Positions 1,811-63,801 of a stretch of DNA of 64,000 bases are shown piece by piece; position 1 is the stretch's first letter, and each line of letters begins with the position of its first letter. Both the position numbers and the translations under genes were made by a program. Source of the DNA: Bacillota bacterium (GTDB lineage: Bacteria > Bacillota > Clostridia > Peptostreptococcales > Anaerovoracaceae); the NCBI GenBank assembly GCA_017556505.1, contig JAFYNS010000136.1, forward strand, positions 2,547 to 66,546. The letters run 5' to 3'. The notes beneath the pieces were generated by a model, which saw nothing but the letters and a program-made list of their open reading frames with translations, was not told the origin of the DNA and did no database searches.

Positions 1811-4800
1811 TTAGAATTTTCTCCACGCCTTTGCAGACCATTCGCTGCAGTACTTCTTACCATTCAGTTCCACATAGCCGCGAACTTTGTAGTAGTATGT
1901 ATTTCCAGCTTCCAGTTCCTTGTTATTGGTATAGGAAGTCTTCGTTGTTGTGAAGATTGGCTTCTTGCCGAATCCGCTGTAACGCTTCGCAGATCGGAAG
2001 ATCTGATATCCGTCGAAGAAGTCAGTATCATCACCGTCGGCTTCAAACCACCAGATTTTGATGGCTTTTCTGCCGTTGAGTCTGGTGCTCTTGCTTCGGG
2101 TTACCAGCTGAATGCCGTCGATTTTGCCCAGCAAAATTTCTTCTTCGCTCTGCTGCATCTTCACCAGCACCTGTACCTTGTCTCCCGTCTTCAGTCCGGT
2201 CAGGGAAGTTACCTTACCCATGGACTTTCCGTTTACCAGAACTTCTTCCAGCTCATAGCCTTCTTCTACTGTGATTTCAGCCTTCGTACCATAATTGGTC
2301 AGCTTCACGTCTGCACCTTCTCCCGCTTCCACTTCTGGTTTCTGCAGTTCCGGTATTTCATTGTAGATCATCTGGTTTTCTGCTGTCTTAATCAGGCCAT
2401 TGATTCGGTCGATTTCTGCCTGCATGGAAGCCTTTTCTTCTGCCGTGTAATTGGAATCACCCATTAAAGCTTCCAGAGCCTTCTTCGCTTCTTCCAGCTT
2501 TGTCCTGGTTTCTCTAAGTGAAGAATTACTTGTCTTCTTAACATCATTTTCTGTGATATCCTCTGCTGCGCTTAAAGCATCCTTCAGTTCAGCCTGATCT
2601 GCTGCAATCTTAGCCAGGATTTCCTGTGCCTCTGCAATGGCTTCATCCAGCTGATCTTTCTGCGCCTTTGTCAGGTTTTCGTCGGACTTCTTTTCTGTGA
2701 TTTCAGAAATCAGTTCTTCTACCGTTGCTTTGTCTGCAGAGGTGATTGTATCTGGATTCAAAGCAGCCGCTCTGTCTTCCAGTGCCTTTACTTCCGCTTC
2801 AGTGTCTGTGATGACCTTTTCCAGTGCTTCGATACGGTCGATTTCTTCCTGTACCTTTGCCTTTTCTGCATCGGTGTAGTTGTCATCTGTCAGCAGTTCT
2901 TTCAGCTTCGCCTTGGCTTCTGCCAATGCCTTGCTGTCATCTGCAGTTACATTGGCATCGGTGATTGCTTCTGCTGATTTCAGTGCGTATTCCAGAACTT
3001 TCTGATCTTCTGCCATCTTATCCAGAACATCTTCCATCTGGTCGATAGTATTCTGCACCTGTCCCTTCTGTTCTTCCGTCAAGTTCGGATGATTCAGCTG
3101 CTCCTTCAGTTCGTTCAGCAGATCTTCCACAGAATCTTTATCTGCGCTGGTTACCTTTTCCGGATCCACCGCATCCGCTGCGCCCGTCAGACTGTCGAAA
3201 GCTGCCTTGGCATCTTCAATTGCCTTCTGCAGAGCAGCTACGTTCGCCTGCGCCTGCTTCAGAGCCTGAAGTTCCTCATCGGCTGCATAAGTTCTGTCTA
3301 CCGCTGCCAGTGCATCTTCTACCGCCTTGATGGCTGTAGAATCATCTGCAGTTACGCTGTCCACTGTCAGTTCCTGAATGGACTGGCTGATGGATGCAAT
3401 TGGTTTCATGAATACAGTGACAGATGTGCTGTTTCCCGCCTTGTCCTTTACCGTTATGGTGTATGTTTTATCCACATTTCCTGCCAGTACACGTTCTGTC
3501 AGTTCCCCTTCTGCCAGGTTCTTATCAGAAACCTGTACCTTCTGGGTTGTATAGTATGTAGCACCGCCGATCACACCAGTGAGTGCTGGTGCAGTCAGGT
3601 CGAATTCCATACCGTCTGTAGAAATATAGGTTTTGTTTCCTGCTTTGTCCGTGATTCGGATGTAGTAAACATACTGTTTCGCATCTTCTGCAGTTACACT
3701 TACCTTGCCGCCGGAAACTTTGGTCCAGGTGTCTATGTTCTTCACAGCATCTTCTGTCATTGCAGTTTCCGCCTGACAGTATTCGATAGTCTTTACGCCA
3801 GAGAGTTCATCTGTCGCGCTTACTTCCAGTTCTACTGTCTCATTGAAGAATAATCCGAACGTAATTCTGTTCAGCAGGGAATTCCAGGTGTGATCTTCCA
3901 GCTTCACCTCACCGCTTGGTGCAATGGTATCGGTAACCACTACAGTTGCCTTGCCCTGTACGGTTTCATAGTTATCAGTATCTACTGGTGTGAACGTATA
4001 CGCTACCGTATTTTCACCCCATACCAGAGTTGAGTCTGTATAATCTACTGACAGGCTGCCTGCCACAGATACATCGGTTCTGGACAGAACAACCGCTGCC
4101 GCTGATGTTTCATTGGCTGGAATGTCTGCACTTACCGTTCCGATTTCCGGAACTGCTCTGGCAATAGATACCTTTACACTTCCTGCTGCAGAGTCCTTAT
4201 GGTTTGCATCACCGAGCACTTTATAGGATACGGTATATTCCCCTGCATTCACTGCGCCTGGCACCTCGGTGCTCCACGGATCGTCACCCAGCTTGTACAG
4301 CATGCTGCCATGTTCTGTAGAACCGGCTATTACCAGAGTCTTTTCGCTGCCGTCATATACCAGACCGCTGACAGCCTGTGGTGCAGTAAATACCGCTTCT
4401 GCCTTTTCGATGGTGAATGTCCATGCGTCATCAGTCAGTCCAGTCACTGGCTTGTAGTTTGCACCTTCTGCCACATCAATCTTCACAGTATAGGTTCCTG
4501 CGTTGACAGGAGATACTTCCCTATTTCCCTGATAGTACTTCACAGTTATGCTGCCCATGCCGGTGATGGAAGCCGCAGAAGCCAGACCTGCAGATTTTGC
4601 CAGGCCGTCATAGGGCAGACCAGTTGGAGCAGTGAAAACAAAGTCAGACACTGCAGGAGCCGCTTTCTCGATAGTAAAGGTTCCACTTGCAGTTCCGGCG
4701 TAATTGCCCTTACCGGTTACGGTCACCTTCGCACTACCTGCGTTGGTGTTATCAGAATAACTTACCGCATAATCATCACTTGTCAAAATCTTTCCGTCCA

Positions 4801-7800
4801 GCCTTACGGTCACGTCCGGCTCCTGTGCCTGGCCGTTATATGTCACCGAAGCCGGAGCTGCACTTACCGCTGCGCCTGCTATGGACGCCGGGGCGATGGT
4901 GTACTCTGCGGAAATGGTCTGTCCGCCCAGAGTGATGGATGCTGTGTAGCTTCCTGCGTTAACAGGATATCCACCGGTGAGATCACCGCTGTAAACCACA
5001 GTCACTGTGTCGCCGGTCGTCAGATGATTTGTCACATCCGCTTCTATCGCACTGCCTGTATAGGTCAGGTCCGCCGGTGGTGCAATCGTCACAGAACCGC
5101 CATCGCCATTTTCCTTAATACATCCTTCCGCATTACAGATTGCTTTGATTGTGTTTTCTGATCTTGTATAGGTCCAGCTGTGAATATGGTTGGTGTAGCT
5201 TTCACTGGTACTGTCATGGAAAACGACAGTGCCGTGGAACTGTGGATAATCCTGCTTGTCTTCACCGGTTAACGTCTGATACCACACCAGATCTCCGGTG
5301 GACTTGGAGCCATTGAGCTTGTAGGCAATTTCGCCGGAAGCGAAGGCTTCTGCACTGACACCGTAAGCCGAGTCTGTCACAGTTCCCAAATATTCGCTGT
5401 CTGCAAGCTTGTTGTAGTCCGTATAACAATGATCAATTTTTCCGATTCGTGTGGTATTCTCTTCCATCCCCTGGTTGTATGCTGTAATGCCGCCATTTCG
5501 ATAGCCATACAAGGTATGACCTGCAACGTAGCAATTTTCAATGGTTCCGCCAAGATTACTTACTGTAATACCACCTGAATAACTGGAGCCCCAATAATCT
5601 CCGCTAATCACTTTCGTGTTTTTTACGAAGCAGTTTGATACCTTTCCACCCAGAATCTGTGAAGCGATCATTCCTGCAGTCGGGCTGGTTAAGGCAGCAT
5701 AATGAACTGTAATATCTTCCATCCCCAAGTTCTTCACAGTGCCGGAAAGGGATCCAAACAGGCCTAATGGTGCATACACTTCAATCTGACCGCCGCTTTT
5801 TATGGTAATATTAGATATCACATGACCATCCCCGTCAAATGTACCCTGATACCCTGTCTCTGTATGGTTCACATCATCGATGTAGTTTGGAGTTCCGGCC
5901 GGTGTAAGCCATACGGTGCCGGTCATGTCGATATCGGCAGTCAGTTTGGCATTGGCAGACAGATGATCTTTGCTGGTTTCCAGATATTCATTGAACCACA
6001 GCAGCTGGCCGGCATTGGAAATCAGATAGACGCCATTCTCCGCTTCCGGCTGCTCGTTATGTTTGCATACAGTACAGATACCGTTCTCCATGGTATGGCG
6101 GACAGTCTCCTTTACTGCACCGCAGCAGGCATGTTTCACAGTATGAAGAATTCCTGGAACGTTCTTATCCGCTTCATAGGTATAAGCTGCACTTTCGTGG
6201 TTGTCCGGATTAAACTCCCCTACGTCTATGCCACATACATCGCAGACTGCTCTGGTCTGGCAGGTTGCTTCCGTGAGCGTCGCCACATGAATATGCTCAC
6301 AGATAAAGGTTCCCGTATTTGTTTCGGAAATCATTCCGATATAGTTTATGCCATCTGATACAACGCAGGTCGGCTGGCTGCCGGATGGCAGATAGAAATA
6401 CAGGGTATTTTTTATCGGCATCACATCCGCGAATCCGTACTGAATCGCAGACTCGCCGGCGTTCATTTCTGTAATCAGGCTGTCAATCGCAGTATCATCT
6501 AATCCCTTTAAGGTAATGGTATACAGAGAAAGGGCTTCACTTCCGTTGGTTATGCTGCCTACAATTCCTTCCGTTCCTGCAGCATACACATTTCCCCCGT
6601 TGATTGTAACAGTACCTTCTTCACAGCCCCATCCCGGACCGATATCATAAGTTGCCTGTCCGGTTGCCCGGATGGTTCCGCCGTTAATGGTAATATGCGG
6701 TGCTGCCTGAGAATGACCGGAGCCGATTCCTGCTGAGTCAGGGCCTCCCACAGCTTCAATTCTGCCGCCGTTAATGGTAATTCTGCCGCTGAGGTTATCA
6801 TAAGCACCAGCCGCCCCAATTCCAGCAGCACCGGCATACTCGTATTCATGATTCAACGCCGTAACGCTTCCGCCATTGATGGTGATATATCCCATATCCC
6901 CCCCATAGGCAGTACCGATTGCTGCGCCTGTCCCATAGGATTGTGCAGTAATGGTTCCGCTGTTTATTGTAATCTTACCGTTACCTGGCTCTTTATAGAT
7001 ATTCGAACCACCTCCGCCGATCGCAGTACCGCCTTTTTTACTTCCAGTTACATCCAGGCTTCCGACACCTTCAATGGTGACAGAAGCACCCGTCGGCACA
7101 TAAATCCCCGGCAGCATATAGGCTCCGCCGGTCAGCTGGTTTCTGCCAATCAGCGTAATGGATGCATGTGCGGAAGGCGCAATGTCAACTGGGGAAACAG
7201 TGCTTTCCCCGGTAATGGTACAGCTGTCCAGAATCAGTTTCACGCTGGCGCCTTCCTCTATGGTAATGCCGTTTGAAGTAACGTTTTCGCCATCCCCGTA
7301 TATGCGAACCATCGCATCACTGCTTACCTGATAGGATCTGCCATCATGCGTGATGATAAGCTTCCCTCCGCCTGCCGCCTTAATGGTAACAGGAGATTTC
7401 AAAATATCATACTCGTTAGGAACAGCTTCTACTGTAAAAGCAAAATCCTCCACATAGGCAGTCCCCATGCCTGCTCCATTTTCAATTTTGCCACGGAGTG
7501 TGAGAGTGCCCGCCGCTGAGGCGGAAAATGCGTTATACGCGTCAGCAGGAATGGCCGTTTCCACGCCATCAACAACGGTATACCATGTTATGTTCTGATA
7601 ATCTGCATGTTCCGGCAGAACGGCCACACCTTCCGTCAGGTTCAGTTTCTCACCCTGTACTGCATCCTGTGACGCACTGTGTCTTTCAAACTGAATATCG
7701 GTAACCGGTACCAGCTGGTGTTCGCAGACAGTACAATTATTGTCCGCCCCGAAGATATGTGCAGTACATACATTGCCGCATATCATACAGGTATTATCAT

Positions 7801-9031
7801 CATACGCGTGCATGCCCGGCTGAATGGTATATCCGCAGACAATACAGTCTCCGCCCTCGTTACAGGTATCATGCAGGTCATGTACGCCTTCCTGGCCTTT
7901 CGCACCGCAAAGTATGCACACAGCTGCGTGTGTACCCTCGGTATAAGACCAGAGACTTGTGTGTGTCTCAATCAGACCGCAAACCTCACCATTGGAAAAG
8001 CTGCTGAGTTCCTTGCACAGTACACTCTCTTCCTCTACAACGCAGGATCCGGTATTTTTCTCAGTTGATCCTACAGACTGCCATTTTGATGGGACATAGT
8101 AACTGTTACTGAGAAATACATAACTCGGATTCCCTACAAGCGCTCCCGTGTAGTAAATTCGGCTCCCGCCTGTATAGGTATTTACTACGGTGCCCCTATT
8201 GTAGCAGCCAGAGACGATGCTCATCTTATTCGTTCCGTACACAGTTCTTGTACCGCCCAGGAGTCCTCCCACTTCGGAAAGGTTATCCCATACAGTGACA
8301 GTCCCTGCATATCCGCATTGCAGCAGATAGTCGTTAAGGGAGATACCTACGATACCGCCGGCTGCGAATGCTGAATTAACCGACGCTTCACTGTAACATT
8401 TATAAAAATTGGTTCCTGCTGAATCCGCTGCAATAGAGCCGACGCTTGCCGTTTCACCAGAAGCAGCGAACCAGGAATCCAGAATTGCAACATTAGTAAT
8501 TTCGGAGTTATGGGTGAAAGCAAACACCCCCGCACCGCCGCCATCTTCCGGCACCACGCAGTAGATTCCACTGATGGAAAAGCCGTTGCCGCGGAACTGT
8601 CCCTTGAACGGATTCTCTGCAGTTCCGATCGGCATCCATCCGCGAAGAGAGGATTCATTGGAAACCAGCGTTCCATCCCCGTTCAGCACTTTTTCATTGA
8701 CAACGATATCTTTCATCAACCATCCATTGGTCGTTCTGTTGTTGGCACCCCCATTTACAAATTCCGCAAACCAGTAAAGCTGCCCTGCATTGGAAATTTC
8801 ATAAAATGAGGTCTGGCTTAATACGGCCGGCTGATATCCGCCGCATGCGGTGCAGAATCCGTTATGATATACCCCGGTACATCCATCTGTACTTCCGCAG
8901 GCTGCGCCTTCCAGCCGCTCTGCCCCGTAGGCGGCACTGCCAGTACCGCCCACCGGCATCAGGGTCATCACCAGGCACATGCTCAGTACCAGGCTTAAAA
9001 TCCGTTTCCACTTTGATGTCAAGTTCTTCAT
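1811..9031 (-). CDS. Giant secreted multi-domain surface protein (2406 aa), adhesin-like
   Basis: N-terminal signal peptide (MKNLTSKWKRILSLVLSMCLVMTLMPVGG). Two ISNAGQL(Y/L)WF beta-helix modules (GLUG-like). Several Cys-rich CxxC segments. A run of ITINGG(T/S/R/N) parallel beta-helix turns at approx 6500-7450. Four to five Y(N/D)G...NAG.Y...I Ig-like repeats at approx 4200-5100 (MBG/Big-like). Two tandem alpha-helical repeats at 2369-2746 and 2747-3154. A C-terminal FN3-like domain at approx 1814-2125. I saw no LPXTG, SLH or choline-binding anchor. Confidence 0.85.
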   Translation of the reverse strand: MKNLTSKWKRILSLVLSMCLVMTLMPVGGTGSAAYGAERLEGAACGSTDGCTGVYHNGFCTACGGYQPAVLSQTSFYEISNAGQLYWFAEFVNGGANNRTTNGWLMKDIVVNEKVLNGDGTLVSNESSLRGWMPIGTAENPFKGQFRGNGFSISGIYCVVPEDGGGAGVFAFTHNSEITNVAILDSWFAASGETASVGSIAADSAGTNFYKCYSEASVNSAFAAGGIVGISLNDYLLQCGYAGTVTVWDNLSEVGGLLGGTRTVYGTNKMSIVSGCYNRGTVVNTYTGGSRIYYTGALVGNPSYVFLSNSYYVPSKWQSVGSTEKNTGSCVVEEESVLCKELSSFSNGEVCGLIETHTSLWSYTEGTHAAVCILCGAKGQEGVHDLHDTCNEGGDCIVCGYTIQPGMHAYDDNTCMICGNVCTAHIFGADNNCTVCEHQLVPVTDIQFERHSASQDAVQGEKLNLTEGVAVLPEHADYQNITWYTVVDGVETAIPADAYNAFSASAAGTLTLRGKIENGAGMGTAYVEDFAFTVEAVPNEYDILKSPVTIKAAGGGKLIITHDGRSYQVSSDAMVRIYGDGENVTSNGITIEEGASVKLILDSCTITGESTVSPVDIAPSAHASITLIGRNQLTGGAYMLPGIYVPTGASVTIEGVGSLDVTGSKKGGTAIGGGGSNIYKEPGNGKITINSGTITAQSYGTGAAIGTAYGGDMGYITINGGSVTALNHEYEYAGAAGIGAAGAYDNLSGRITINGGRIEAVGGPDSAGIGSGHSQAAPHITINGGTIRATGQATYDIGPGWGCEEGTVTINGGNVYAAGTEGIVGSITNGSEALSLYTITLKGLDDTAIDSLITEMNAGESAIQYGFADVMPIKNTLYFYLPSGSQPTCVVSDGINYIGMISETNTGTFICEHIHVATLTEATCQTRAVCDVCGIDVGEFNPDNHESAAYTYEADKNVPGILHTVKHACCGAVKETVRHTMENGICTVCKHNEQPEAENGVYLISNAGQLLWFNEYLETSKDHLSANAKLTADIDMTGTVWLTPAGTPNYIDDVNHTETGYQGTFDGDGHVISNITIKSGGQIEVYAPLGLFGSLSGTVKNLGMEDITVHYAALTSPTAGMIASQILGGKVSNCFVKNTKVISGDYWGSSYSGGITVSNLGGTIENCYVAGHTLYGYRNGGITAYNQGMEENTTRIGKIDHCYTDYNKLADSEYLGTVTDSAYGVSAEAFASGEIAYKLNGSKSTGDLVWYQTLTGEDKQDYPQFHGTVVFHDSTSESYTNHIHSWTYTRSENTIKAICNAEGCIKENGDGGSVTIAPPADLTYTGSAIEADVTNHLTTGDTVTVVYSGDLTGGYPVNAGSYTASITLGGQTISAEYTIAPASIAGAAVSAAPASVTYNGQAQEPDVTVRLDGKILTSDDYAVSYSDNTNAGSAKVTVTGKGNYAGTASGTFTIEKAAPAVSDFVFTAPTGLPYDGLAKSAGLASAASITGMGSITVKYYQGNREVSPVNAGTYTVKIDVAEGANYKPVTGLTDDAWTFTIEKAEAVFTAPQAVSGLVYDGSEKTLVIAGSTEHGSMLYKLGDDPWSTEVPGAVNAGEYTVSYKVLGDANHKDSAAGSVKVSIARAVPEIGTVSADIPANETSAAAVVLSRTDVSVAGSLSVDYTDSTLVWGENTVAYTFTPVDTDNYETVQGKATVVVTDTIAPSGEVKLEDHTWNSLLNRITFGLFFNETVELEVSATDELSGVKTIEYCQAETAMTEDAVKNIDTWTKVSGGKVSVTAEDAKQYVYYIRITDKAGNKTYISTDGMEFDLTAPALTGVIGGATYYTTQKVQVSDKNLAEGELTERVLAGNVDKTYTITVKDKAGNSTSVTVFMKPIASISQSIQELTVDSVTADDSTAIKAVEDALAAVDRTYAADEELQALKQAQANVAALQKAIEDAKAAFDSLTGAADAVDPEKVTSADKDSVEDLLNELKEQLNHPNLTEEQKGQVQNTIDQMEDVLDKMAEDQKVLEYALKSAEAITDANVTADDSKALAEAKAKLKELLTDDNYTDAEKAKVQEEIDRIEALEKVITDTEAEVKALEDRAAALNPDTITSADKATVEELISEITEKKSDENLTKAQKDQLDEAIAEAQEILAKIAADQAELKDALSAAEDITENDVKKTSNSSLRETRTKLEEAKKALEALMGDSNYTAEEKASMQAEIDRINGLIKTAENQMIYNEIPELQKPEVEAGEGADVKLTNYGTKAEITVEEGYELEEVLVNGKSMGKVTSLTGLKTGDKVQVLVKMQQSEEEILLGKIDGIQLVTRSKSTRLNGRKAIKIWWFEADGDDTDFFDGYQIFRSAKRYSGFGKKPIFTTTKTSYTNNKELEAGNTYYYKVRGYVELNGKKYCSEWSAKAWRKF

Positions 9032-43134: not shown

Positions 43135-43349
43135 GTACGCCTTTTCTTAAAAAACAGATGTTTTGGAGTACAAATTTCATTATAAAACTTCAAATAATCG
43201 TCTTTTAACCGCGAAAAATGTATTTTTTCAACAATTACAGTACTCCAAAATGCAAAATTCAGTGTGTTTGGCGTACTTTTCACGCTGCCAGACAGGTAAT
43301 GCAATCCATTTTGTACTCCAAAACACCCAAATCAACGCATTTGGAGTAC
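43135..43349. repeat. Triplet A of the 37-bp bipartite palindrome RTACKCC-N23-GGMGTAY
   Basis: Copies at 43135-43171 (GTACGCC...GGAGTAC), 43240-43276 (GTACTCC...GGCGTAC) and 43313-43349 (GTACTCC...GGAGTAC). The spacer is exactly 23 nt in each. Confidence 0.9.
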
Positions 43350-57602: not shown

Positions 57603-58121
57603 CTACAGTTTCCACAGCAGAAGATCCGCATAGGAAAGTTCCCCTGTAAAGGTTTCCTCTCTCACCGCTAGGTGTTCCGCCCCCATCTTCAGGTACAGAT
57701 TGAGAGCGTTTTCATTTCCACGGACCACACAGATTCCCATCTGAGGGTAGCCTTCCTTCCTGCCTTCTGCAAGAACACGCTCAATCAGTGCGGTTCCGAT
57801 GCCCTGACCGTGGCACTCCGGCTCTACATGAAGGGAATCCAGGTAGAAGCAGTTGTCGATTTTGTAATACGGATGGTAAGGCATGAAGGAAACAAATCCC
57901 AGCATCTTCTCTCCGTCCATGGCCACGAAGGCCCCCTGTCCCGGCTTGGTTATATATTCACTCCACTTTTTAAACTTATCCTCGTAACTCAGGCTGTCCA
58001 GATAAGGCTGATTTAAAAGCCCCTTGTAGGCACGTTTCCAGCTGCGGACATATAAATCGGTAATCAGCGGTACGTGTTTCGCTTCCGCCAACTGAATCTG
58101 ATAGGCAATTTCCGGTTTCAT
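57603..58121 (-). CDS. GNAT-family N-acetyltransferase
   Basis: ...FYLDSLHVEPECHGQGIGTALIERVL... Confidence 0.8.
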   Translation of the reverse strand: MKPEIAYQIQLAEAKHVPLITDLYVRSWKRAYKGLLNQPYLDSLSYEDKFKKWSEYITKPGQGAFVAMDGEKMLGFVSFMPYHPYYKIDNCFYLDSLHVEPECHGQGIGTALIERVLAEGRKEGYPQMGICVVRGNENALNLYLKMGAEHLAVREETFTGELSYADLLLWKL

Positions 58122-58222
58122 TTTCTGTTTCTCAGCTCCTTTTCATTCAGACTGTTATCTGTTATAATCTACCTATATTATGAACACAGAGAGGGCTGCC
58201 TGTCAAGGCTGCATGAAACACC

Positions 58223-58387
58223 ATGAGACATAAAAAAGTAAAAAATCTGGACAGCAGAATGGTTGCGGTCCGCAATTATCTGATTGAAGACATCGGCGGC
58301 AGTGCTCTGGCACTTGCAGAAAGTGCAAAGAAATACAGAGGTCAGTGGAGAACGTATTTTGCCGGGCTTCAGGGAGCAGAGGAATGA
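58223..58387 (+). CDS. Possible 54-aa ORF (MRHKKVKNLDSRMVAVRNYLIEDIGGSALALAESAKKYRGQWRTYFAGLQGAEE); weak
   Basis: My own translation. It is below the 60-aa track cutoff, has no convincing RBS, and I recognise no family. Confidence 0.15.
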   Translation: MRHKKVKNLDSRMVAVRNYLIEDIGGSALALAESAKKYRGQWRTYFAGLQGAEE

Positions 58388-58431
58388 CCTGATGCAAGCC
58401 GCTTCTGATTCGGGCAGCCTTTCGGCCCAAA

Positions 58432-58658
58432 ATACTCCTTTTTGCATTCTTTGCGCCGTTTGGAGTATCGAACCCCTGAAAAAACACATAAAAAAGGCAA
58501 TACAACTCCATGTACTGCCTTTTTTAGTACTCCTTTTTGTGGTTTGCATGCGATTTGGCGTATAAATGGCGTCCAAAACTGCCTGTCTCACCCACTTCAG
58601 ACCTCATGATGACGCCCCCCAATACTCCTTTTGCCTTTCAGATAGCAAAAAGGAGTAT
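58432..58658. repeat. Triplet B of the 37-bp bipartite palindrome RTACKCC-N23-GGMGTAY
   Basis: Copies at 58432-58468, 58527-58563 and 58622-58658, with starts exactly 95 bp apart and a 23-nt spacer in each. The third copy is a near-perfect palindrome, ATACTCCTTTTGC...GCAAAAAGGAGTAT. Confidence 0.9.
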
Positions 58659-58699
58659 TTATCGCCCACTTGAGAGGGGCGCGGCATGACTGCAGCACA

Positions 58700-59590
58700 C
58701 TATCTCGCTGTGCCAACCAGTTCCTGCAGTTCATGCTGCAGCAAATCCATAATCGCCTGCTGATCGATCCCACCCTTGCAGTCGTCAGCAGTGATAATCA
58801 GATTCTTTCCCGGGATAATCCCGGCCCAGTAATACAAAATCATCTTCTTCATCCAGTGTTCCATGTACCAGTCCTTGTCCATCAGGCCGAGATGCTCATG
58901 ATACTTTTTCGTGCCGTCCGGCAGCTTGCAGGTATAATCCGGCACATAATAATCCGCAATCCCAAGCCGCTCCTTCATTTCCCACGCTTCCGGCGGCGCA
59001 TCCTGCGGCCAGTAAACACGTTCCTCGTAAGAATACGGAATCTTCAAAGTATGATAGATGTTGTCCACGATGATCTCCGATTTCGACCGGTTAATCTCAC
59101 CACGCATATTTTTGTGCACCAGATGCTCCGGATGCAGGACCGTTCCCTGGGCAATCGCCGCCTGCTGCGCCGCGATCCTGTCTGACTGCCGCTTCTTCGC
59201 AGCCTTCGCCCAGCCGGCCTCAATAATTCACCTGTACACCGGCCGCATTCTCTGCAGCACATAATCATCCCGATATGACTTGTACTTTCCCAGCAAAATC
59301 TCCTGCCATTTCAGGTTGCACTCAATCGTACTTTGCTTGGCTTCCAGCAGATTCCGCCATGCGATCTCCCAGGCACGCTTCCCCTCCGGAGACAGACATT
59401 CCGTCCGGTTCACGTAAACCGCCTTCCCATTGTTCCCCTGTTTCAGATGCCCCTCCGGCAAACGTTTCAGTTCTTTTTTAATCCATTTGAGCATCTGTTT
59501 TTCCAACAAAACATCTCTTTCCAGGGCTGTCTTAAATCCTCTCATCCGAATCCCTTCTTCCTTACCTTGAATTTTCTTCCATATTATCAT
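58700..59590 (-). pseudogene. PD-(D/E)XK nuclease-like ORF interrupted by one in-frame TGA (59228-59230)
   Basis: Track ORFs 59228-59590 and 58700-59119 share one frame. The 36 codons between them are open. C-terminal half: RSKSEIIVDNIY ... YYVPDYTCKLPDGTKKYHEHLG. The likely start is MRGFK at 59545, preceded by GAAGGGA. Confidence 0.6.
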
Positions 59591-59645
59591 ATATTTTACT
59601 GCAAGTCACGCATTTTATGTAATATTTTTACATTCGTTCAACCGA

Positions 59646-59679
59646 ATTAAAAAAGTGCCTTACTGTCAAGTAAAGCACT
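59646..59679 (-). terminator. Terminator downstream of the radical SAM operon and triplet C
   Basis: AGTGCCTTAC pairs with GTAAAGCACT (one mismatch). TTTTTAAT follows on the minus strand. Confidence 0.5.
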
Positions 59680-59700
59680 TCCTTCTTGTTTCAGGATAAA

Positions 59701-59937
59701 ATACTCCTTTTTGCGTTCTGCACTTAGTTTGGAGTACAGGCAATGCGGATTTTCCCCCGCTATATCGTAATTTGCTGTTCTTGGATACTCCTTTCATGCT
59801 TTAACAGCACCATTGGAGTATCAACTGAAGATGCAAACATCCAAACAACCCGCGGTTTCGCGATTCATCCACATATTTCCGGTGATTTGCAAGGCTGATG
59901 ATACTCCATTTTGCCGGCAAACCGCGAAAAGGAGTAC
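59701..59937. repeat. Triplet C of the 37-bp bipartite palindrome RTACKCC-N23-GGMGTAY
   Basis: Copies at 59701-59737, 59785-59821 and 59901-59937, with a 23-nt spacer in each. Confidence 0.9.
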
Positions 59938-59981
59938 TTTTCGCAGTCCGAAAGCCGTGGAAGCAACATCCGTCGTTCCCT

Positions 59982-60830
59982 CTACACAAACCGCTGTGCG
60001 TACCCGCACCGGCGGCATAATTCTTCAGAAGCTTTTCGGCATGCGAATCCGCGGACCATGGCCTGCGCCCGCTCTGAGTTCAGCACGGAATCCAGATTAT
60101 CCTCGAAGACATTTCCAAGATTTATCACACCCTCGCTGTCCAGACAGCACGGCACCACAGTTCCGTCGCAAAGAATCCCGAAATGGTCTTTCAGGCCCCA
60201 GCAGACTACTTCGTCCCCCTGCATTTCGGCATTGAGATCCGGCCACTGGAAACGGTCACCCCACTCCAGGTGGAGCTTGTCACGGATCCGGATACCACGG
60301 GTATTTTCTGCCCACTCACCTTCCAGCCGCCCTCTCAGATATTCGAAAGTACGGTCGTTTCTGCCACCGTCGTGCCCCCGGTTCCAAAGGCGCAGAACCA
60401 CGATAATTCCAGCCTTTGAAGCCGCATCCGCAAAGTCCGTCACATCCCTCATGTATTTCTCATAGGCCTCTTCGTCCTGACCCGCGGTACCGCACAGTTC
60501 TCCTTCGAAACTGTGCAGTGACACACTTACCTTATGAGGCGCTGCGGCAATCAGCTTCTCCTGACGCCGCGCCAGAAGAGAACCGTTGGTGGTGATGATA
60601 GACTTGAGGCCTCGGTTCTTTGCGATGCCGATAAACTCCGGCAGCTGAGGATGGGAAAGGGGTTCCCCCATGAGGTGATAATAAATATGCTTTGTCCGGC
60701 CTTCCAACTGCTCCAGAACCGCTTCAAACTGCTCCCTGCTCATACGGCCCGGCTTGCGCGAGTGACCGTGGCAGAAGGAACAGTTCATATTGCAGATATT
60801 CGTAATTTCTATGTAAACTTTTGCGTACAT
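59982..60830 (-). CDS. Radical SAM / SPASM-domain protein (short, 282 aa)
   Basis: CNMNCSFC (CX3CX2C) near the N-terminus. The C-terminus has GTVVPCCLDSEG ... CRRCGY, a SPASM/twitch-like Cys pattern. Confidence 0.75.
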   Translation of the reverse strand: MYAKVYIEITNICNMNCSFCHGHSRKPGRMSREQFEAVLEQLEGRTKHIYYHLMGEPLSHPQLPEFIGIAKNRGLKSIITTNGSLLARRQEKLIAAAPHKVSVSLHSFEGELCGTAGQDEEAYEKYMRDVTDFADAASKAGIIVVLRLWNRGHDGGRNDRTFEYLRGRLEGEWAENTRGIRIRDKLHLEWGDRFQWPDLNAEMQGDEVVCWGLKDHFGILCDGTVVPCCLDSEGVINLGNVFEDNLDSVLNSERAQAMVRGFACRKASEELCRRCGYAQRFV

Positions 60831-62434: not shown

Positions 62435-62956
62435 ATGTCAGGAAAAAAGAAATATTCAAATGAGTTTAAATTAGCATTGGTCCAAGAGTATTTAGTCGGA
62501 AAGAATGGTGGTTATACAATGCTCGCCAGGAAGTATGGAATTGACCGTAATCATCTTAGACTGTGGATCAATGCATACAAAGCCAATGGAATCGAAGGTT
62601 TAGCAAAAGTTACCCGAACTTATGATGGCATTACTAAAATTCATATTGTAGAATATATGCATAACAACTCTTTGTCCATCAGACATACTGCAGCATTATT
62701 TGGGATTCAATCGCCCTCAACAATCGCAAAGTGGGAACGAATTTATTTCGCAGAAGGCAAAGAGGCATTACTGGAAGAACGAAGAGGTCGAAAGCATATG
62801 TCTACAAAGAAGTCAAAAGAAACAAAGAAAAAGAATATTAATGAAAACGAAGATCTTCTTGCGGAACTTCAGCGTCTTCGCATGGAGAACGAATACTTAA
62901 AAAAATTGAATGCCTTAATTCAAGAGCGGGAAAAGTCGGAGCAAAAGAAAAAGTAA
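62435..62956 (+). CDS. IS3-family transposase OrfA (HTH)
   Basis: MSGKKKYSNEFKLALVQEY...LARKYGI..., a leucine-zipper-like C-terminus, ending in the A-rich run GAAAAAG. Confidence 0.85.
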   Translation: MSGKKKYSNEFKLALVQEYLVGKNGGYTMLARKYGIDRNHLRLWINAYKANGIEGLAKVTRTYDGITKIHIVEYMHNNSLSIRHTAALFGIQSPSTIAKWERIYFAEGKEALLEERRGRKHMSTKKSKETKKKNINENEDLLAELQRLRMENEYLKKLNALIQEREKSEQKKK

Positions 62957-63801
62957 CAGTCATTTCTGAGTTAAGGCAAAAGTATCCGCTTAAAGATTTA
63001 CTGAAGCTTGCCGGTGTACCAAGAAGTACATACTATTACTTAGTAAAAAGGGCCTTAAAGTCTGATAAATACCGTATTGAGAAAGAAGAAATCACGGCAA
63101 TTTATCACGAAAATATGGGTAGATACGGTTATCGCAGAATCACTATGGAAATGCGTAATCGTGGATATATCATAAACCACAAAACTGTTCAGCGGCTCAT
63201 GAAACAGCTGAATCTCAAGTGCATGGTCAGAATGAAGAAATATCGCTCATATCGAGGCCAGGTTGGCAAAGTAGCACCTAATCTGATTAACCGAGATTTT
63301 CATGCTGAAGCACCGAACCAAAAGTGGACGACAGATGTAACGGAGTTTTCTCTCTTTGGTAAGAAGATATATCTTTCACCAATACTGGATATGTACAATA
63401 GCGAAATCATATCGTACACAGTAAGTGAACGCCCTACACTTGCACCAGTTTTGGAAATGATAGATACCGCTTTTGAGCGCTTGCCTGAAAATTCAGGTCT
63501 GATACTCCATTCAGATCAAGGATGGCAATATCAGAACCAGCAGTATCAAAAGAGACTTACCGAAAAGGGAGTCGTTCAAAGTATGTCACGCAAGGGAAAT
63601 TGTCTTGATAATGCTATTATGGAGAATTTCTTTGGATTACTCAAATCAGAACTTCTTTATTTGCGTGCATTTAAAGATATTGAAGAGTTCCTTTCAGAAC
63701 TCGAAAAATATATATTTTACTACAACCACAATCGTATCAAGGGTAAACTAAAAGGACTTAGCCCTGTAGATTACAGGATTAAGTCCCAGTTAGTTGCTTA
63801 A
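62953..63801 (+). CDS. IS3-family transposase OrfB (DDE), probably made as an OrfAB fusion by -1 frameshift in the A-run at about 62944-62953
   Basis: The -1 frame is open from 62941 (..KVTVISELRQKYPLKDLLKLAGVPRSTYYY..). DDE signature WTTDVTEF, HSDQGWQY, NAIMENFFGLLKSE. The track lists only the ATG-initiated part, 63115-63801. Confidence 0.8.
   Translation, partial: VTVISELRQKYPLKDLLKLAGVPRSTYYYLVKRALKSDKYRIEKEEITAIYHENMGRYGYRRITMEMRNRGYIINHKTVQRLMKQLNLKCMVRMKKYRSYRGQVGKVAPNLINRDFHAEAPNQKWTTDVTEFSLFGKKIYLSPILDMYNSEIISYTVSERPTLAPVLEMIDTAFERLPENSGLILHSDQGWQYQNQQYQKRLTEKGVVQSMSRKGNCLDNAIMENFFGLLKSELLYLRAFKDIEEFLSELEKYIFYYNHNRIKGKLKGLSPVDYRIKSQLVA

What the first reader, a model, noticed from the sequence alone, without database searches (positions are those of the whole stretch)
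58432..59937. Nuclease-like ORF bracketed by two triplets of a strictly spaced 37-bp bipartite palindrome (RTACKCC-N23-GGMGTAY)
Read directly from the sequence, the window has nine copies of a 37-bp unit. Each unit has 7-bp inverted termini, RTACKCC ... GGMGTAY, separated by exactly 23 bp in every copy.

Copy coordinates:
- 58432-58468, 58527-58563, 58622-58658 (starts exactly 95 bp apart)
- 59701-59737, 59785-59821, 59901-59937
- three more at 43135-43349

Inside each terminus is an A/T tract, often followed by GC (TACTCC-W4-GC ...). The central ~12 nt differ between copies. Copy 58622-58658 is a near-perfect palindrome with 13-nt arms.

With equal base frequencies the degenerate pattern is expected about once per 1.7e7 positions ((1/4096) squared). 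Nine copies in 64 kb is therefore not chance.

Two triplets sit on either side of the only substantial ORF in the 58.1-60.0 kb gap, and that ORF has a PD-(D/E)XK-like motif set. All copies lie in non-coding DNA between minus-strand genes. Triplet C lies between the radical SAM stop codon and a terminator, so at least some copies should be transcribed.

The layout resembles REP/BIME palindromes flanking RAYT genes, or multi-site transposon ends such as Mu and Tn7. However, the enclosed protein does not look like a Y1 or DDE enzyme. A fixed 30-bp half-site spacing with a variable core suggests recognition by a dimeric DNA-binding protein rather than a simple RNA hairpin. I cannot assign this repeat to any family I know.
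Basis: partly seen in the sequence, partly recalled or inferred. Interest (0 to 1): 0.8.

Follow-up and report, generated by a model that had tools for sequence, protein, structure and literature searches.

The report
Nuclease gene with matching DNA-site arrays
A decayed gene for an unnamed nuclease-like protein sits between clusters of strictly built 37-bp mirror-symmetric DNA sites, and relatives of this gene in many gut bacteria nearly always carry such clusters with lineage-specific end sequences, which points to an undescribed protein-plus-binding-site module.

Summary
Nine exact RTACKCC-N23-GGMGTAY units occur at the stated coordinates, against 0 expected.

The enclosed ORF (58700-59545, minus strand) is one frame broken by a CGA->TGA nonsense codon. 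Intact 281-aa homologs exist, and all are named "hypothetical".

The protein has a prefoldin-like coiled-coil N-terminal half and a PD-(D/E)XK-type C-terminal nuclease domain. That domain also occurs in the PADLOC defence candidate PDC-S68.

- **Gene-array link.** 34 of 47 loci with a small-form homolog have at least 3 dyad units of the same 7-N(21-26)-7 geometry beside the gene. None of 16 helicase-fusion loci do.
- **Specificity.** Arm sequences differ by lineage and track protein identity. Paralogs within one genome have different arms.
- **Phasing.** Unit spacings are multiples of about 10.5 bp, and A/T peaks recur about every 10 bp inside units.
- **Mismatches.** Arm mismatches are not RNA-compatible.
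- **Co-location.** Arrays move with the gene between genomic sites.

Best reading: these are double-stranded DNA binding sites for the gene's own product. Gene and arrays form a fast-evolving, relocating, frequently decaying module. Its biological role is unresolved: selfish recombination element, defence or regulation, or mobilisation. No described family fits.

The parts
58432..58468 (.). Unit A1 of array A, downstream of the ORF: ATACTCC-N23-GGAGTAT
   Evidence: Exact pattern match. Present in all strain variants L072-L080.
58527..58563 (.). Unit A2: GTACTCC-N23-GGCGTAT. The arms carry a T.C mismatch.
   Evidence: The RNA fold is no better than shuffled sequence, z = +0.84.
58622..58658 (.). 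Unit A3, a near-perfect palindrome that starts 42 bp after the ORF stop codon
59701..59737 (.). Unit B1 of array B, upstream of the ORF. It resembles A1: 77% identity over 48 bp, flank included.
59785..59821 (.). Unit B2
59901..59937 (.). Unit B3. It resembles A3 (73% identity).
43135..43349 (.). Orphan array C: three units at 43135, 43240 and 43313, all with GTAC ends, spaced 105 and 73 bp apart. It lies between a haloacid dehalogenase-family (HAD) hydrolase gene and the start of a short-chain dehydrogenase gene, 27 bp from that start codon.
   Evidence: The same array is present in another sample (L133).
58700..59545 (-). Pseudogene of the 281-aa protein, with a coiled-coil N-terminal half and a PD-(D/E)XK-like C-terminal domain. 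An in-frame TGA lies at 59228-59230, and an alternative upstream ATG at 59590.
   Evidence: Intact alleles occur in strains L075, L076 and L077.
59612..59641 (-). Promoter-like site (TTGAAC-18-TAAAAT) between array B and the ORF start
   Evidence: Consensus scan only.
58479..58526 (-). Terminator-like hairpin of 16 pairs followed by a T run, between units A2 and A1. It is probably the ORF's terminator, which would mean A3 and A2 are co-transcribed as 3' UTR.
   Evidence: The transcription statement is an inference.
59546..59964 (.). Segment holding array B and the promoter. In otherwise 97-99% identical strains it is replaced by a 235-aa RNase_T/zinc-ribbon gene.
58223..58387 (+). 5' remnant of a Methyltransf_4 gene. 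The gene is complete in strain L075. A 603-bp deletion in the window lineage ends 33 bp from unit A1.

Best explanation
**What the units are.** The 37-bp units are sites on double-stranded DNA that are recognised by the product of the adjacent gene family. That product is an unannotated protein of about 250-300 aa. Its N-terminal half is an antiparallel coiled coil with a beta-hairpin tip, resembling prefoldin. Its C-terminal half is a PD-(D/E)XK-type nuclease domain.

**How binding probably works (inferred).**
- A dimer, or a higher oligomer, reads the two 7-bp arms.
- The rigid coiled coil sets the fixed arm-to-arm distance of 30 bp.
- A/T-rich minor-groove positions at about 9, 19 and 29 of the unit let the DNA bend over the protein.
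- Units are placed at whole numbers of helical turns, so 3 to 11 bound units line up on one face of the DNA and build a higher-order nucleoprotein complex next to the gene.

**How the module behaves.** Gene and array form a self-contained module:
- specificity co-evolves quickly between protein and arms;
- several paralogous modules with different arms coexist in one genome;
- the module changes genomic position between related species and rides on integrative islands;
- the gene often decays, leaving arrays behind.

**The window.** Here the gene is dead through a nonsense codon. Two cognate triplets flank it in direct orientation, and a third triplet is an orphan.

**Function.** I commit to a selfish, array-directed nuclease or recombination module as the most likely role. 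The nuclease would act at or beside its arrays and promote local rearrangement and its own spread. This last step is inference only. What is shown: the repeat, its geometry and its tie to the gene family. What is inferred: binding, dimer geometry and function.
For: **Gene-array association**
- At least 3 dyad units sharing arms lie within 1.3 kb of 34 of 47 small-form homologs.
- None of 16 helicase-fusion homologs has them (lists).

**Geometry kept while sequence changes**
- Arms seen include RTACKCC, ATACGCT, GCACTCG, TCACTCC, GTACKCG, ACGGATA, TCTTATAG, ATATGTCTG, TTTCACC and TCGGTCA.
- Unit length stays at 37-38 bp.

**Specificity tracks the protein**
- Arm similarity rises with protein identity. 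Matches out of 7 positions: 7 at >85% identity, 4.3 at 60-85%, 2.8 at 40-60%, and 2.1 below 40%, which is about chance.
- Paralogs within one MAG have different arms: L010, L014 and L015 in one, L011 and L012 in another.
- Locus L010 versus L011: the flanks are 92-95% identical, but the arrays cannot be aligned and the ORFs are 82% identical.
- In a related species the radical SAM locus has neither gene nor array, while gene plus 4 units sit elsewhere in the genome.

**Signs of recognition at the DNA level**
- 61 of 62 lineage-level spacings fall within 2 bp of a multiple of 10.5 bp. The resultant is R = 0.86, and 0 of 20000 jittered nulls reach it.
- A/T content peaks at unit positions 8-10 and 18-20; by dyad symmetry the first peak recurs at positions 28-30. 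Either A or T serves.
- Position 5 varies between T and G independently in the two halves (TT 10, GT 8, GG 6). This gives G.A or T.C mismatches, not wobble pairs.
- 3 of 9 window units fold no better than shuffled sequence.
- Rfam finds nothing.

**The protein**
- The AF2 model has pLDDT 84.5, and the N-terminal model 90.8.
- The best PDB fold matches are TnsA, Cas4-like proteins and NucS for the C-terminal domain, and prefoldin beta for the N-terminal domain. All are weak.
- The C-terminal domain matches PADLOC PDC-S68 (E down to 3e-27) and HEAT_CxxC_PD-DEXK (E = 6e-4).
- A distant member matches a PHROG Holliday-junction resolvase family (E = 7e-5).
- E157, D203, E217 and K234 are invariant across 36 sequences that go down to 24% identity.

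**Module dynamics**
- Pseudogenes or truncations occur in the window, in L015 and in L043.
- A 1.7-kb module is 97% identical at two loci of one Butyrivibrio MAG. One copy lies next to a tyrosine integrase; at the other locus an integrase gene was identified in the related Butyrivibrio sp. Su6 locus L048.
- Strain-level gene gains and losses abut the arrays.
Against: - No binding or cleavage has been shown. Everything rests on comparative inference.
- The fold matches are weak (Foldseek E of 0.3 or more), and no classical DNA-binding domain was found.
- The canonical Lys of (D/E)XK is replaced (E217-H-L219). Catalysis therefore depends on an assumed relocated lysine, K234.
- One lineage (TTACTCC arms, rumen metagenomes) is spaced mainly at 81 bp, 3 bp off phase.
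- Many spacing values are not phylogenetically independent.
- In about half of the lineages the array starts 10-60 bp after the stop codon. It is then probably part of the mRNA, so an RNA role is not excluded.
- The mobility evidence could equally reflect passive carriage on islands moved by tyrosine integrases.
- No target-site duplications or defined element ends were found.
- Only 64 kb of the source genome was available, so the genome-wide copy number is unknown.
Confidence: 0.6

Rival explanations
1. Same protein-to-array binding, but a different role. The protein would be a defence or stress nuclease related to the PDC-S68 nuclease domain. The arrays would act as operators for autoregulation, or as parking and sequestration sites that keep the nuclease inactive until it is triggered. 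Orphan arrays would place neighbouring genes under the same control.
For: - The nuclease domain is shared with the PADLOC defence candidate PDC-S68.
- Neighbouring genes in some loci are typical of variable or defence regions: SocA_Panacea, WYL, type I restriction subunit R, RNase_T and a methyltransferase.
- Upstream arrays end 30-155 bp before the start codon.
- Orphan array C ends 27 bp from the start codon of a dehydrogenase gene.
Against: - About half of the lineages have the array only downstream of the gene. That is an odd place for an autoregulatory operator.
- No partner genes are conserved.
- The small form was not found on phages or plasmids, or in IMG/VR. This is neutral for a defence role.
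- Frequent decay of the gene fits either reading.
Confidence: 0.2
2. The arrays work as RNA. They would be transcribed and form hairpins with a 7-bp stem and a variable loop. These would serve either as CRISPR- or TIGR-like guide arrays for the nuclease, or as REP-like 3' stabilisers of mRNA.
For: - Downstream arrays begin 10-60 bp after the stop codon. In the window the terminator-like hairpin lies beyond units A3 and A2.
- 6 of 9 window units fold well, with z of -3.2 or lower.
- Butyrivibrio arrays look CRISPR-like, with 41-bp repeats and a 75-bp period.
- Non-CRISPR interspaced arrays tied to nucleases have been reported (PMC10910872).
Against: - The mismatches between arms are G.A or T.C, not wobble pairs.
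- 3 of 9 units fold no better than shuffled sequence.
- A and T are interchangeable in the tracts, and A/T recurs every ~10 bp.
- Units are in helical phase.
- Arrays occur on either side of the gene.
- Butyrivibrio arrays, spacers included, are conserved between species and differ only in copy number. There is no adaptive spacer turnover.
- Rfam finds nothing, even at E of 1 or less.
Confidence: 0.1
3. The module is a mobilisation unit. The protein would be a restriction-endonuclease-fold relaxase, as in the MOBC family, and the array would be its origin of transfer (oriT). The loci would then be integrative mobilisable elements or their remnants.
For: - In L041 the order is tyrosine integrase, att-like lysS 3' end, array, ORF. 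That is the layout of a minimal integrative mobilisable element.
- In L048 a Tn916-type integrase follows the module.
- From established knowledge: MOBC relaxases have a PD-(D/E)XK-like fold and lie next to their oriT. IMEs that carry MobC relaxases are reviewed in PMC5704250.
Against: - Most loci, including the window, have no integrase, coupling protein or other transfer gene nearby.
- MobC-type elements typically carry their own VirD4 coupling protein (PMC5704250).
- There is no hit in NCBIfam or Pfam.
- tblastn against 72,556 plasmids found only the helicase fusion.
- Arrays of 3-11 phased dyads are not typical of oriT.
Confidence: 0.07
4. The repeats belong to a family that is already described: REP/BIME with a RAYT gene, a MITE or IS end, integron attC sites, or a CRISPR array. 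Alternatively they are bound by a host factor, and their closeness to the ORF is coincidence.
For: - There is a superficial likeness: palindromic, intergenic, clustered and flanking a gene.
- Unrelated tandem satellites can also match the pattern.
Against: - No HUH (Y1), DDE, IntI or Cas protein is encoded in the gap that holds the arrays and the ORF.
- There are no Rfam matches and no blastn matches in the plasmid or phage collections.
- Units within one array differ in their interiors.
- The arms follow the adjacent paralog rather than the host genome.
- The association holds in 34 of 47 small-form loci against 0 of 16 controls.
Confidence: 0.03

Closest known systems
REP/BIME palindromes with their RAYT (TnpA-REP) genes
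   Same: - A gene is flanked by clusters of short intergenic palindromic repeats.
- Each protein lineage has its own repeat sequence.
- Orphan clusters occur elsewhere in the genome.
   Different: - The protein has a PD-(D/E)XK-like fold plus a coiled coil. It is not an HUH/Y1 transposase.
- Only the 7-bp arms and the 23-bp spacing are conserved. The hairpin is not maintained.
- The units are helically phased.
- Copy number looks low and local, though genome-wide counts could not be made.
Multi-site transposon ends (Mu L1-3/R1-3; Tn7 TnsB sites with the TnsA nuclease)
   Same: - Triplets of protein-binding sites lie on either side of an element-encoded gene.
- TnsA is the best, though weak, structural match for the C-terminal domain.
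   Different: - There is no DDE partner such as TnsB or MuA.
- The flanking arrays are in direct, not inverted, orientation.
- The sites are dyad-symmetric.
- No target-site duplication or defined ends were found.
- There is no sequence-level similarity to TnsA.
res sites of serine resolvases (Tn3/gamma-delta), and operators or iterons placed next to the gene of the protein that binds them
   Same: - Several dyad sites lie next to the gene whose product binds them.
- They are spaced by whole helical turns (53 bp is common in both).
- They build a higher-order complex.
   Different: - The enzyme class is unrelated.
- All units share one fixed 37-38-bp geometry.
- Arrays reach 11 units.
- Arrays may lie downstream of the gene.
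PADLOC candidate defence protein PDC-S68 (RecD2-like helicase fused to a nuclease)
   Same: The C-terminal nuclease domain is homologous (E down to 3e-27).
   Different: - PDC-S68 is about 1230 aa and has a helicase.
- It has no coiled-coil N-terminal domain.
- It has no adjacent arrays (0 of 16 loci).
CRISPR arrays and other interspaced-repeat arrays (the non-CRISPR arrays of PMC10910872)
   Same: Partly palindromic repeats, regularly interspaced, lie next to a nuclease-family gene.
   Different: - Repeat interiors vary within an array.
- Spacers are conserved between species.
- There are no cas genes.
- The evidence points to DNA-level rather than RNA-level function.
- None of the six listed systems matches this protein.

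Membership tests
REP/RAYT | Associated gene encodes an HUH (Y1) IS200/IS605-like transposase | tested here: not met
   No Pfam, NCBIfam or PHROG match of that kind. The fold is a coiled coil plus a PD-(D/E)XK-like domain.
REP/RAYT | Repeats are imperfect palindromes that form stable hairpins | tested here: inconclusive
   - 6 of 9 units fold well and 3 of 9 do not.
- The arm mismatches are not compensatory and are not wobble pairs.
REP/RAYT | Tens to hundreds of copies dispersed over the genome | not testable with these tools
   Only 64 kb of the source genome is available, and it holds 3 clusters.
CRISPR-Cas | Near-identical repeats, variable spacers that turn over between strains, and cas genes nearby | tested here: not met
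   - Unit interiors differ within arrays.
- Butyrivibrio arrays, spacers included, are conserved across species.
- No cas genes are present.
- There is no Rfam CRISPR-DR match.
Tn7-like (TnsA) / Mu-like transposon | A DDE transposase partner, and inverted ends that carry its binding sites | tested here: not met
   - No DDE gene lies inside the module.
- The flanking arrays are direct repeats (A1 resembles B1, A3 resembles B3).
- TnsA similarity is structural only and weak (E = 0.27).
PD-(D/E)XK nuclease superfamily (C-terminal domain) | An alpha-beta-beta-beta-alpha-beta core with conserved acidic residues and a lysine | tested here: inconclusive
   - Secondary-structure order and the invariant residues E157, D203, E217 and K234 fit.
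- Profile matches: HEAT_CxxC_PD-DEXK (E = 6e-4), PDC-S68, and a PHROG Holliday-junction resolvase family (E = 7e-5).
- Foldseek matches to TnsA, Cas4 and NucS are weak.
- The lysine of (D/E)XK is a leucine here.
PADLOC PDC-S68 | Full-length protein of about 1200 aa with a RecD2-like helicase and a C-terminal nuclease | tested here: not met
   Only model positions of about 1075-1220 are matched, and there is no helicase.
MOBC relaxase with oriT | Homology to the TraX/MobC catalytic domain, a nic site, and usually its own VirD4 coupling protein | not tested
   - No usable reference sequence was obtained. The CloDF13 record is poorly annotated.
- No VirD4 neighbour was seen.
- No plasmid hits to the small form were found.
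Integron attC / cassette array | An IntI tyrosine recombinase, and attC sites of 57-141 bp with RYYYAAC...GTTRRRY cores | tested here: not met
   There is no IntI nearby. The units are 37 bp long with other cores, and several lie in each intergenic gap.

The most novel reading that the evidence does not exclude
This would be a previously unrecognised class of two-part genetic element, widespread in gut Clostridia and spanning about 900 protein clusters at 50% identity.

- A caliper-like nuclease built from a coiled coil and a PD-(D/E)XK domain assembles on phased arrays of 37-bp dyads next to its own gene.
- It uses those arrays as its sites of action, for cleavage or recombination that relocates the module and reshuffles neighbouring genes.
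- Protein and site specificity diversify rapidly together.
- The system would be naturally modular: DNA specificity could be reprogrammed by changing the arms and the reading residues.
Probability: 0.3. Interest if true: 0.9.

Novelty: categorically new. Interest (0 to 1): 0.8.

Why it matters
**An unnamed but large family.** In every source consulted the protein family is called "hypothetical". It is nonetheless large: 897 clusters at 50% identity score E of 1e-30 or better.

**A tight cis-partner.** The family turns out to have a DNA partner of unusual regularity. Arm spacing is fixed, placement follows the helical repeat, and the arms are lineage-specific.

**What that offers.**
- A ready-made natural series of matched protein-site pairs for working out how specificity is read.
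- A candidate new kind of selfish, defence or recombination module.
- An explanation for a class of CRISPR-like and REP-like intergenic repeats in rumen and gut Firmicutes.

**Why it can be tested now.** Intact alleles and their exact sites are known, so the question can go straight to the bench.

**If the role is ordinary.** The module could be a mere autoregulated gene. The architecture would still be a new model for cooperative, phased protein-DNA assembly.

Tried and rejected
**Searches that found nothing**
- Rfam, at gathering thresholds over the whole window and at E of 1 or less over 58100-60000.
- blastn of the 1.9-kb segment against the plasmid and phage collections.
- Pfam, NCBIfam and PHROGs on the close family.
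- PDB sequence search: only coiled-coil noise.

**The metagenome DNA scan**
- A two-unit pattern returned 52 loci.
- Most are unrelated 33-bp satellites (WLWD01...) or coding repeats.
- Seven loci form a further true lineage. The window's own species was not present.

**Mobile-element collections**
- IMG/VR, phages and plasmids hold only the helicase fusion.
- One UNVERIFIED 4.2-kb 'phage' contig holds a small-form homolog, but no clear array could be read there.

**Ideas tested and dropped**
- That the window module carries a duplicated end of a neighbouring gene, as seen in Butyrivibrio. No such remnant was found.
- A CRISPR-like reading of the Butyrivibrio arrays. Rejected because the spacers are conserved.
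- That the Butyrivibrio lysS 3'-end duplication shows the ORF's own integration. Downgraded, because tyrosine integrases sit next to both copies.

**Not completed**
- A MOBC membership test through CloDF13, abandoned for lack of a clean reference protein.

**Literature**
- Searches found no description of the family.
- The six non-CRISPR array systems in PMC10910872 do not match.
Full report
**1.

The degenerate pattern RTACKCC-N23-GGMGTAY occurs nine times in the window, at 43135, 43240, 43313, 58432, 58527, 58622, 59701, 59785 and 59901. None of 100 dinucleotide-preserving shuffles contained a match. Allowing two mismatches adds only one chance-level hit. Every close TACKCC/GGMGTA pair is at the same offset of 29. 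All nine units are intergenic.

Two triplets flank the only real ORF in the 58.1-60.0 kb gap. The third triplet lies between a haloacid dehalogenase-family (HAD) hydrolase gene and the start of a short-chain dehydrogenase gene, 27 bp from that start codon.

**2. The ORF**

- 58700-59590 on the minus strand is a single reading frame interrupted by TGA at 59228-59230.
- Forty homologs were found. The full-length ones are about 279-305 aa, mostly 281 aa, and start at the Met encoded at 59545. They have Arg where the window has the stop, so the change is CGA->TGA.
- No Pfam, NCBIfam or PHROG family covers the protein.
- Every database name found for family members is "hypothetical protein".
- A profile search of 1.84 billion cluster representatives gave 897 proteins at E of 1e-30 or better, nearly all 250-310 aa, and 5175 at E of 1e-10 or better.

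AlphaFold models show two halves (pLDDT 84.5 for the whole protein, 90.8 for residues 1-105).
- **N-terminal half.** It runs helix, three short strands, long helix. The best fold matches are prefoldin beta subunits, and they are weak (probability 0.66).
- **C-terminal half.** It is an alpha/beta domain. The best PDB matches are TnsA, Cas4-family proteins and NucS, also weak (E of 0.27 or more).

Sequence profiles support a PD-(D/E)XK-type nuclease domain.
- The C-terminal ~130 residues match the C-terminus of the PADLOC candidate PDC-S68, with E down to 3e-27.
- They match HEAT_CxxC_PD-DEXK more weakly, at E = 6e-4.
- A distant member matches a PHROG Holliday-junction resolvase family at E = 7e-5.
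- E157, D203, E217 and K234 are invariant down to 24% identity, which argues that the active site is maintained.
- The classical lysine position is Leu, so I treat catalysis as likely but unproven.

**3. The decisive result: arrays come with the gene**

I fetched 63 loci encoding relatives from one genome per species, plus loci for individual homologs. Two architectures carry the nuclease domain:
- small proteins of about 250-305 aa;
- RecD2-like helicase fusions of about 1230 aa, which are PDC-S68.

One uniform scan looked for dyads with 7-bp arms, at most 1 arm mismatch, a spacer of 21-26 bp and shared arms, within 1.3 kb of the gene. It found at least 3 units at 34 of 47 small-form loci and at 0 of 16 helicase-fusion loci.

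The misses among small-form loci are of three kinds:
- gene fragments on short contigs;
- a locus where the array was deleted (L043);
- arrays with more degenerate arms. L002, for example, has four units that can be read by eye and with a looser scan.

The arm sequence is different in each lineage, while unit length stays at 37-38 bp, occasionally 40 bp:

| Source | Arms |
|---|---|
| Window | RTACKCC |
| L005 | ATACGCC |
| L009 | ATACGCT |
| L010 | GCACTCG |
| L011 | GCACGCT |
| L012, L015 | GTACKCG |
| L014 | TCACTCC |
| Butyrivibrio | (GT)ACGGATAA |
| L025, L038 | TCTTATAG |
| L026 | ATATGTCTG |
| L062 | TTTCACC |
| L065 | TCGGTCA |
| L052 | GTACGAC |

**4. The arrays are specific to the adjacent gene, not to the host**

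- Paralogs in the same MAG have different arms: L010, L014 and L015 in one, L011 and L012 in another.
- Arm similarity falls with protein divergence. Matches out of 7 positions are 7 at >85% identity, 4.3 at 60-85%, 2.8 at 40-60%, and 2.1 below 40%, which is near chance.
- L010 and L011 occupy the same site after groEL. Their flanks are 92-95% identical, yet the arrays cannot be aligned and the ORFs are only 82% identical.
- A related species has a radical SAM protein 84% identical to the window's. Its radical SAM locus has neither gene nor array, while the same MAG carries the gene with four units at another site.

**5. DNA or RNA?**

Five observations favour recognition of double-stranded DNA.
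1. Start-to-start distances between units cluster at 52-54, 62-63, 72-75, 84, 95, 104-107, 114-117, 126, 137, 157, 188 and 199 bp.
   - Counting each value once per lineage, 61 of 62 lie within 2 bp of a multiple of 10.5 bp.
   - The resultant peaks at 10.5 bp (R = 0.86), and no jittered null out of 20000 reaches it (raw version).
   - The window's own spacings are 95, 95, 84, 116, 105 and 73 bp.
2. Inside units, A/T content peaks at positions 8-10 (73-87%) and 18-20 (90% at the centre), and by dyad symmetry at 28-30. A and T are interchangeable. This is a minor-groove or bending signature with a period of about 10 bp.
3. Position 5 of the arm is T or G independently in the two halves (TT 10, GT 8, GG 6). 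In a hairpin this gives G.A or T.C mismatches, not wobble pairs. The lineage-specific position 7 agrees between halves in 22 of 24 units.
4. Three of the nine window units fold no better than shuffled sequence.
5. Rfam finds nothing.

The Butyrivibrio arrays look CRISPR-like, with 41-bp repeats and a 75-bp period. However, their spacers are conserved between species, and only the number of 75-bp repeats varies.

Two caveats apply.
- In roughly half of the lineages the array begins 10-60 bp after the stop codon and is probably co-transcribed. In the window, the terminator-like hairpin at 58526-58489 lies beyond units A3 and A2.
- One lineage found in rumen metagenomes (TTACTCC arms) is spaced mostly at 81 bp, which is off phase.

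**6. How the module behaves**

- **Position of arrays.** They lie upstream, downstream or on both sides of the gene. When on both sides they are in direct orientation, as in the window (A1 resembles B1 and A3 resembles B3) and in L014 and L010.
- **Orphan arrays.** These occur in the window (array C), L014 (3809), L010 (12624) and L048 (14398). Recombination between flanking arrays would leave exactly such solo arrays. This is an inference.
- **Gene decay is common.** The window has a nonsense codon, L015 a 173-bp deletion, and L043 has lost the array and the N-terminus.
- **Strain variation in the window species.** Some strains that are otherwise 97-99% identical have an intact gene and only array A. 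In them the 419-bp segment holding array B and the promoter (59546-59964) is replaced by an RNase_T/zinc-ribbon gene. A Methyltransf_4 gene next to array A is complete in one strain but reduced to a stub (58223-58387) in the window.
- **Butyrivibrio.** A 1.7-kb unit of 330 bp, the array and the gene is 97% identical at two loci of one MAG. At one locus it sits at the 3' end of lysS, followed by a diverged lysS 3' remnant. An integrase gene follows that remnant in the related L048 locus, and a tyrosine integrase lies upstream of the other copy, L041. The module may therefore ride on integrative islands rather than move by itself.
- **Mobile-element collections.** The small form was not found in plasmid, phage or IMG/VR collections, which hold only the helicase fusion.

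**7. Interpretation**

Shown:
- the repeat is real;
- its geometry is conserved;
- it is tied to a specific, unannotated protein family;
- its arms co-vary with that protein.

Strongly suggested:
- the protein binds the units as double-stranded DNA, with bound units on one helical face.

Inferred:
- a dimer spans the 30-bp arm-to-arm distance, with the coiled coil acting as a ruler;
- the nuclease domain is active;
- the module is a selfish, array-directed nuclease or recombination element.

Rivals:
- a defence or regulatory role that uses the same binding (0.2);
- an RNA-level function (0.1);
- a MOBC-like relaxase with its oriT (0.07);
- a known repeat family, or coincidence (0.03).

**8. 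Comparison with known systems**

The closest analogy is REP/BIME with RAYT genes, which share gene-flanking, lineage-specific palindromes and orphan clusters. Next come multi-site transposon ends (Mu, Tn7) and res sites of resolvases, which also lie next to the gene of the protein that binds them. Membership in each fails on the defining enzyme, and usually on the repeat anatomy as well (see the membership table). The nuclease domain belongs to a known superfamily and is shared with PDC-S68, but the small protein, its coiled-coil half and its arrays are not described in any library or paper I could search. The literature tool does not cover subscription journals fully, so a prior description cannot be excluded.

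**9. Verdict**

It opens onto a widespread gene-plus-array module that appears to be undescribed. The window copy itself is a decayed example: a dead gene, two cognate triplets and one orphan triplet. Interest is 0.8. Novelty is rated categorically new, with the caveat that the function is untested.

Noticed in passing
L017, L018, L020-L022, L027, L028, L032, L036, L037, L039, L047, L049, L056, L057, L060; L136-L140: The same nuclease domain ends a RecD2-like helicase protein of about 1230 aa with a conserved N-terminus 'MAQHISVRVPWHDNGW'. This protein is PADLOC PDC-S68 and is annotated 'AAA family ATPase'. It is the only form found on plasmids and viral contigs, and it never has arrays beside it.
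   Followed up: partly
L040 6678-8520; L041 2056-5480; L048 5185-10271 and 14398-15165: In Butyrivibrio the array-plus-gene unit lies at the 3' end of lysS, and a diverged lysS 3' fragment follows it. In the orthologous L048 locus a Tn916-type integrase gene lies beyond that fragment. A 97% identical copy elsewhere in the genome keeps the last 10 lysS codons and sits 330 bp from a DUF5688/tyrosine integrase and next to a type I restriction R subunit. A second, gene-less array copy precedes a NUDIX gene.
   Followed up: partly
L075 3163-3870 and 5126-5863; L142 5278-5976 and 10074-10739: An RNase_T/Zn_ribbon_Top1 gene and a Methyltransf_4 gene lie beside the module in some strains of the window species. 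In a related species they lie on either side of the radical SAM gene with no module present. This suggests local rearrangement around the arrays.
   Followed up: partly
window 62435-62956 and 63115-63801: Two plus-strand ORFs of 173 and 228 aa. In the near-identical contig L072 the corresponding genes carry HTH_Tnp_1 and rve domains. They are probably an IS3-family transposase, possibly split, 2.5 kb from the module.
   Followed up: no
window 1811-9031 (minus strand): A very long ORF of 2406 aa. It was not examined.
   Followed up: no
L084, L088, L090-L095, L097, L098 and others (WLWD01... contigs): A 33-bp tandem satellite (GTACTCCCATTTCACACCCTGGTAGCACCAGGC...) in long metagenome contigs matches the two-unit pattern by overlap. 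It is unrelated to the finding, and it warns that the bare pattern is not specific in large databases.
   Followed up: partly
L086, L087, L101, L103, L114, L121, L131: A further array lineage from rumen metagenomes has TTACTCC(C/T)...GGAGTAA arms and very A/T-rich interiors. Its spacing is mostly 81 bp, the one clear exception to 10.5-bp phasing. L121 has a homolog of the gene beside the array.
   Followed up: partly
L026 4142-4490; L064 8898-8990; L065 8496-8910: In some lineages the half-sites alternate in orientation at nearly equal intervals of 26 or 31 bp. Overlapping 37-bp dyads can then be read in two registers, and the array becomes a continuous head-to-head/tail-to-tail chain.
   Followed up: no
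L134 (MT839528.1) 3078-3836: An UNVERIFIED 4.2-kb 'bacteriophage' contig from human faeces encodes a small-form homolog (31% identity over 98% of the query). GTTGCAT/ATGCAAC motifs lie downstream, but no clean array could be read.
   Followed up: partly
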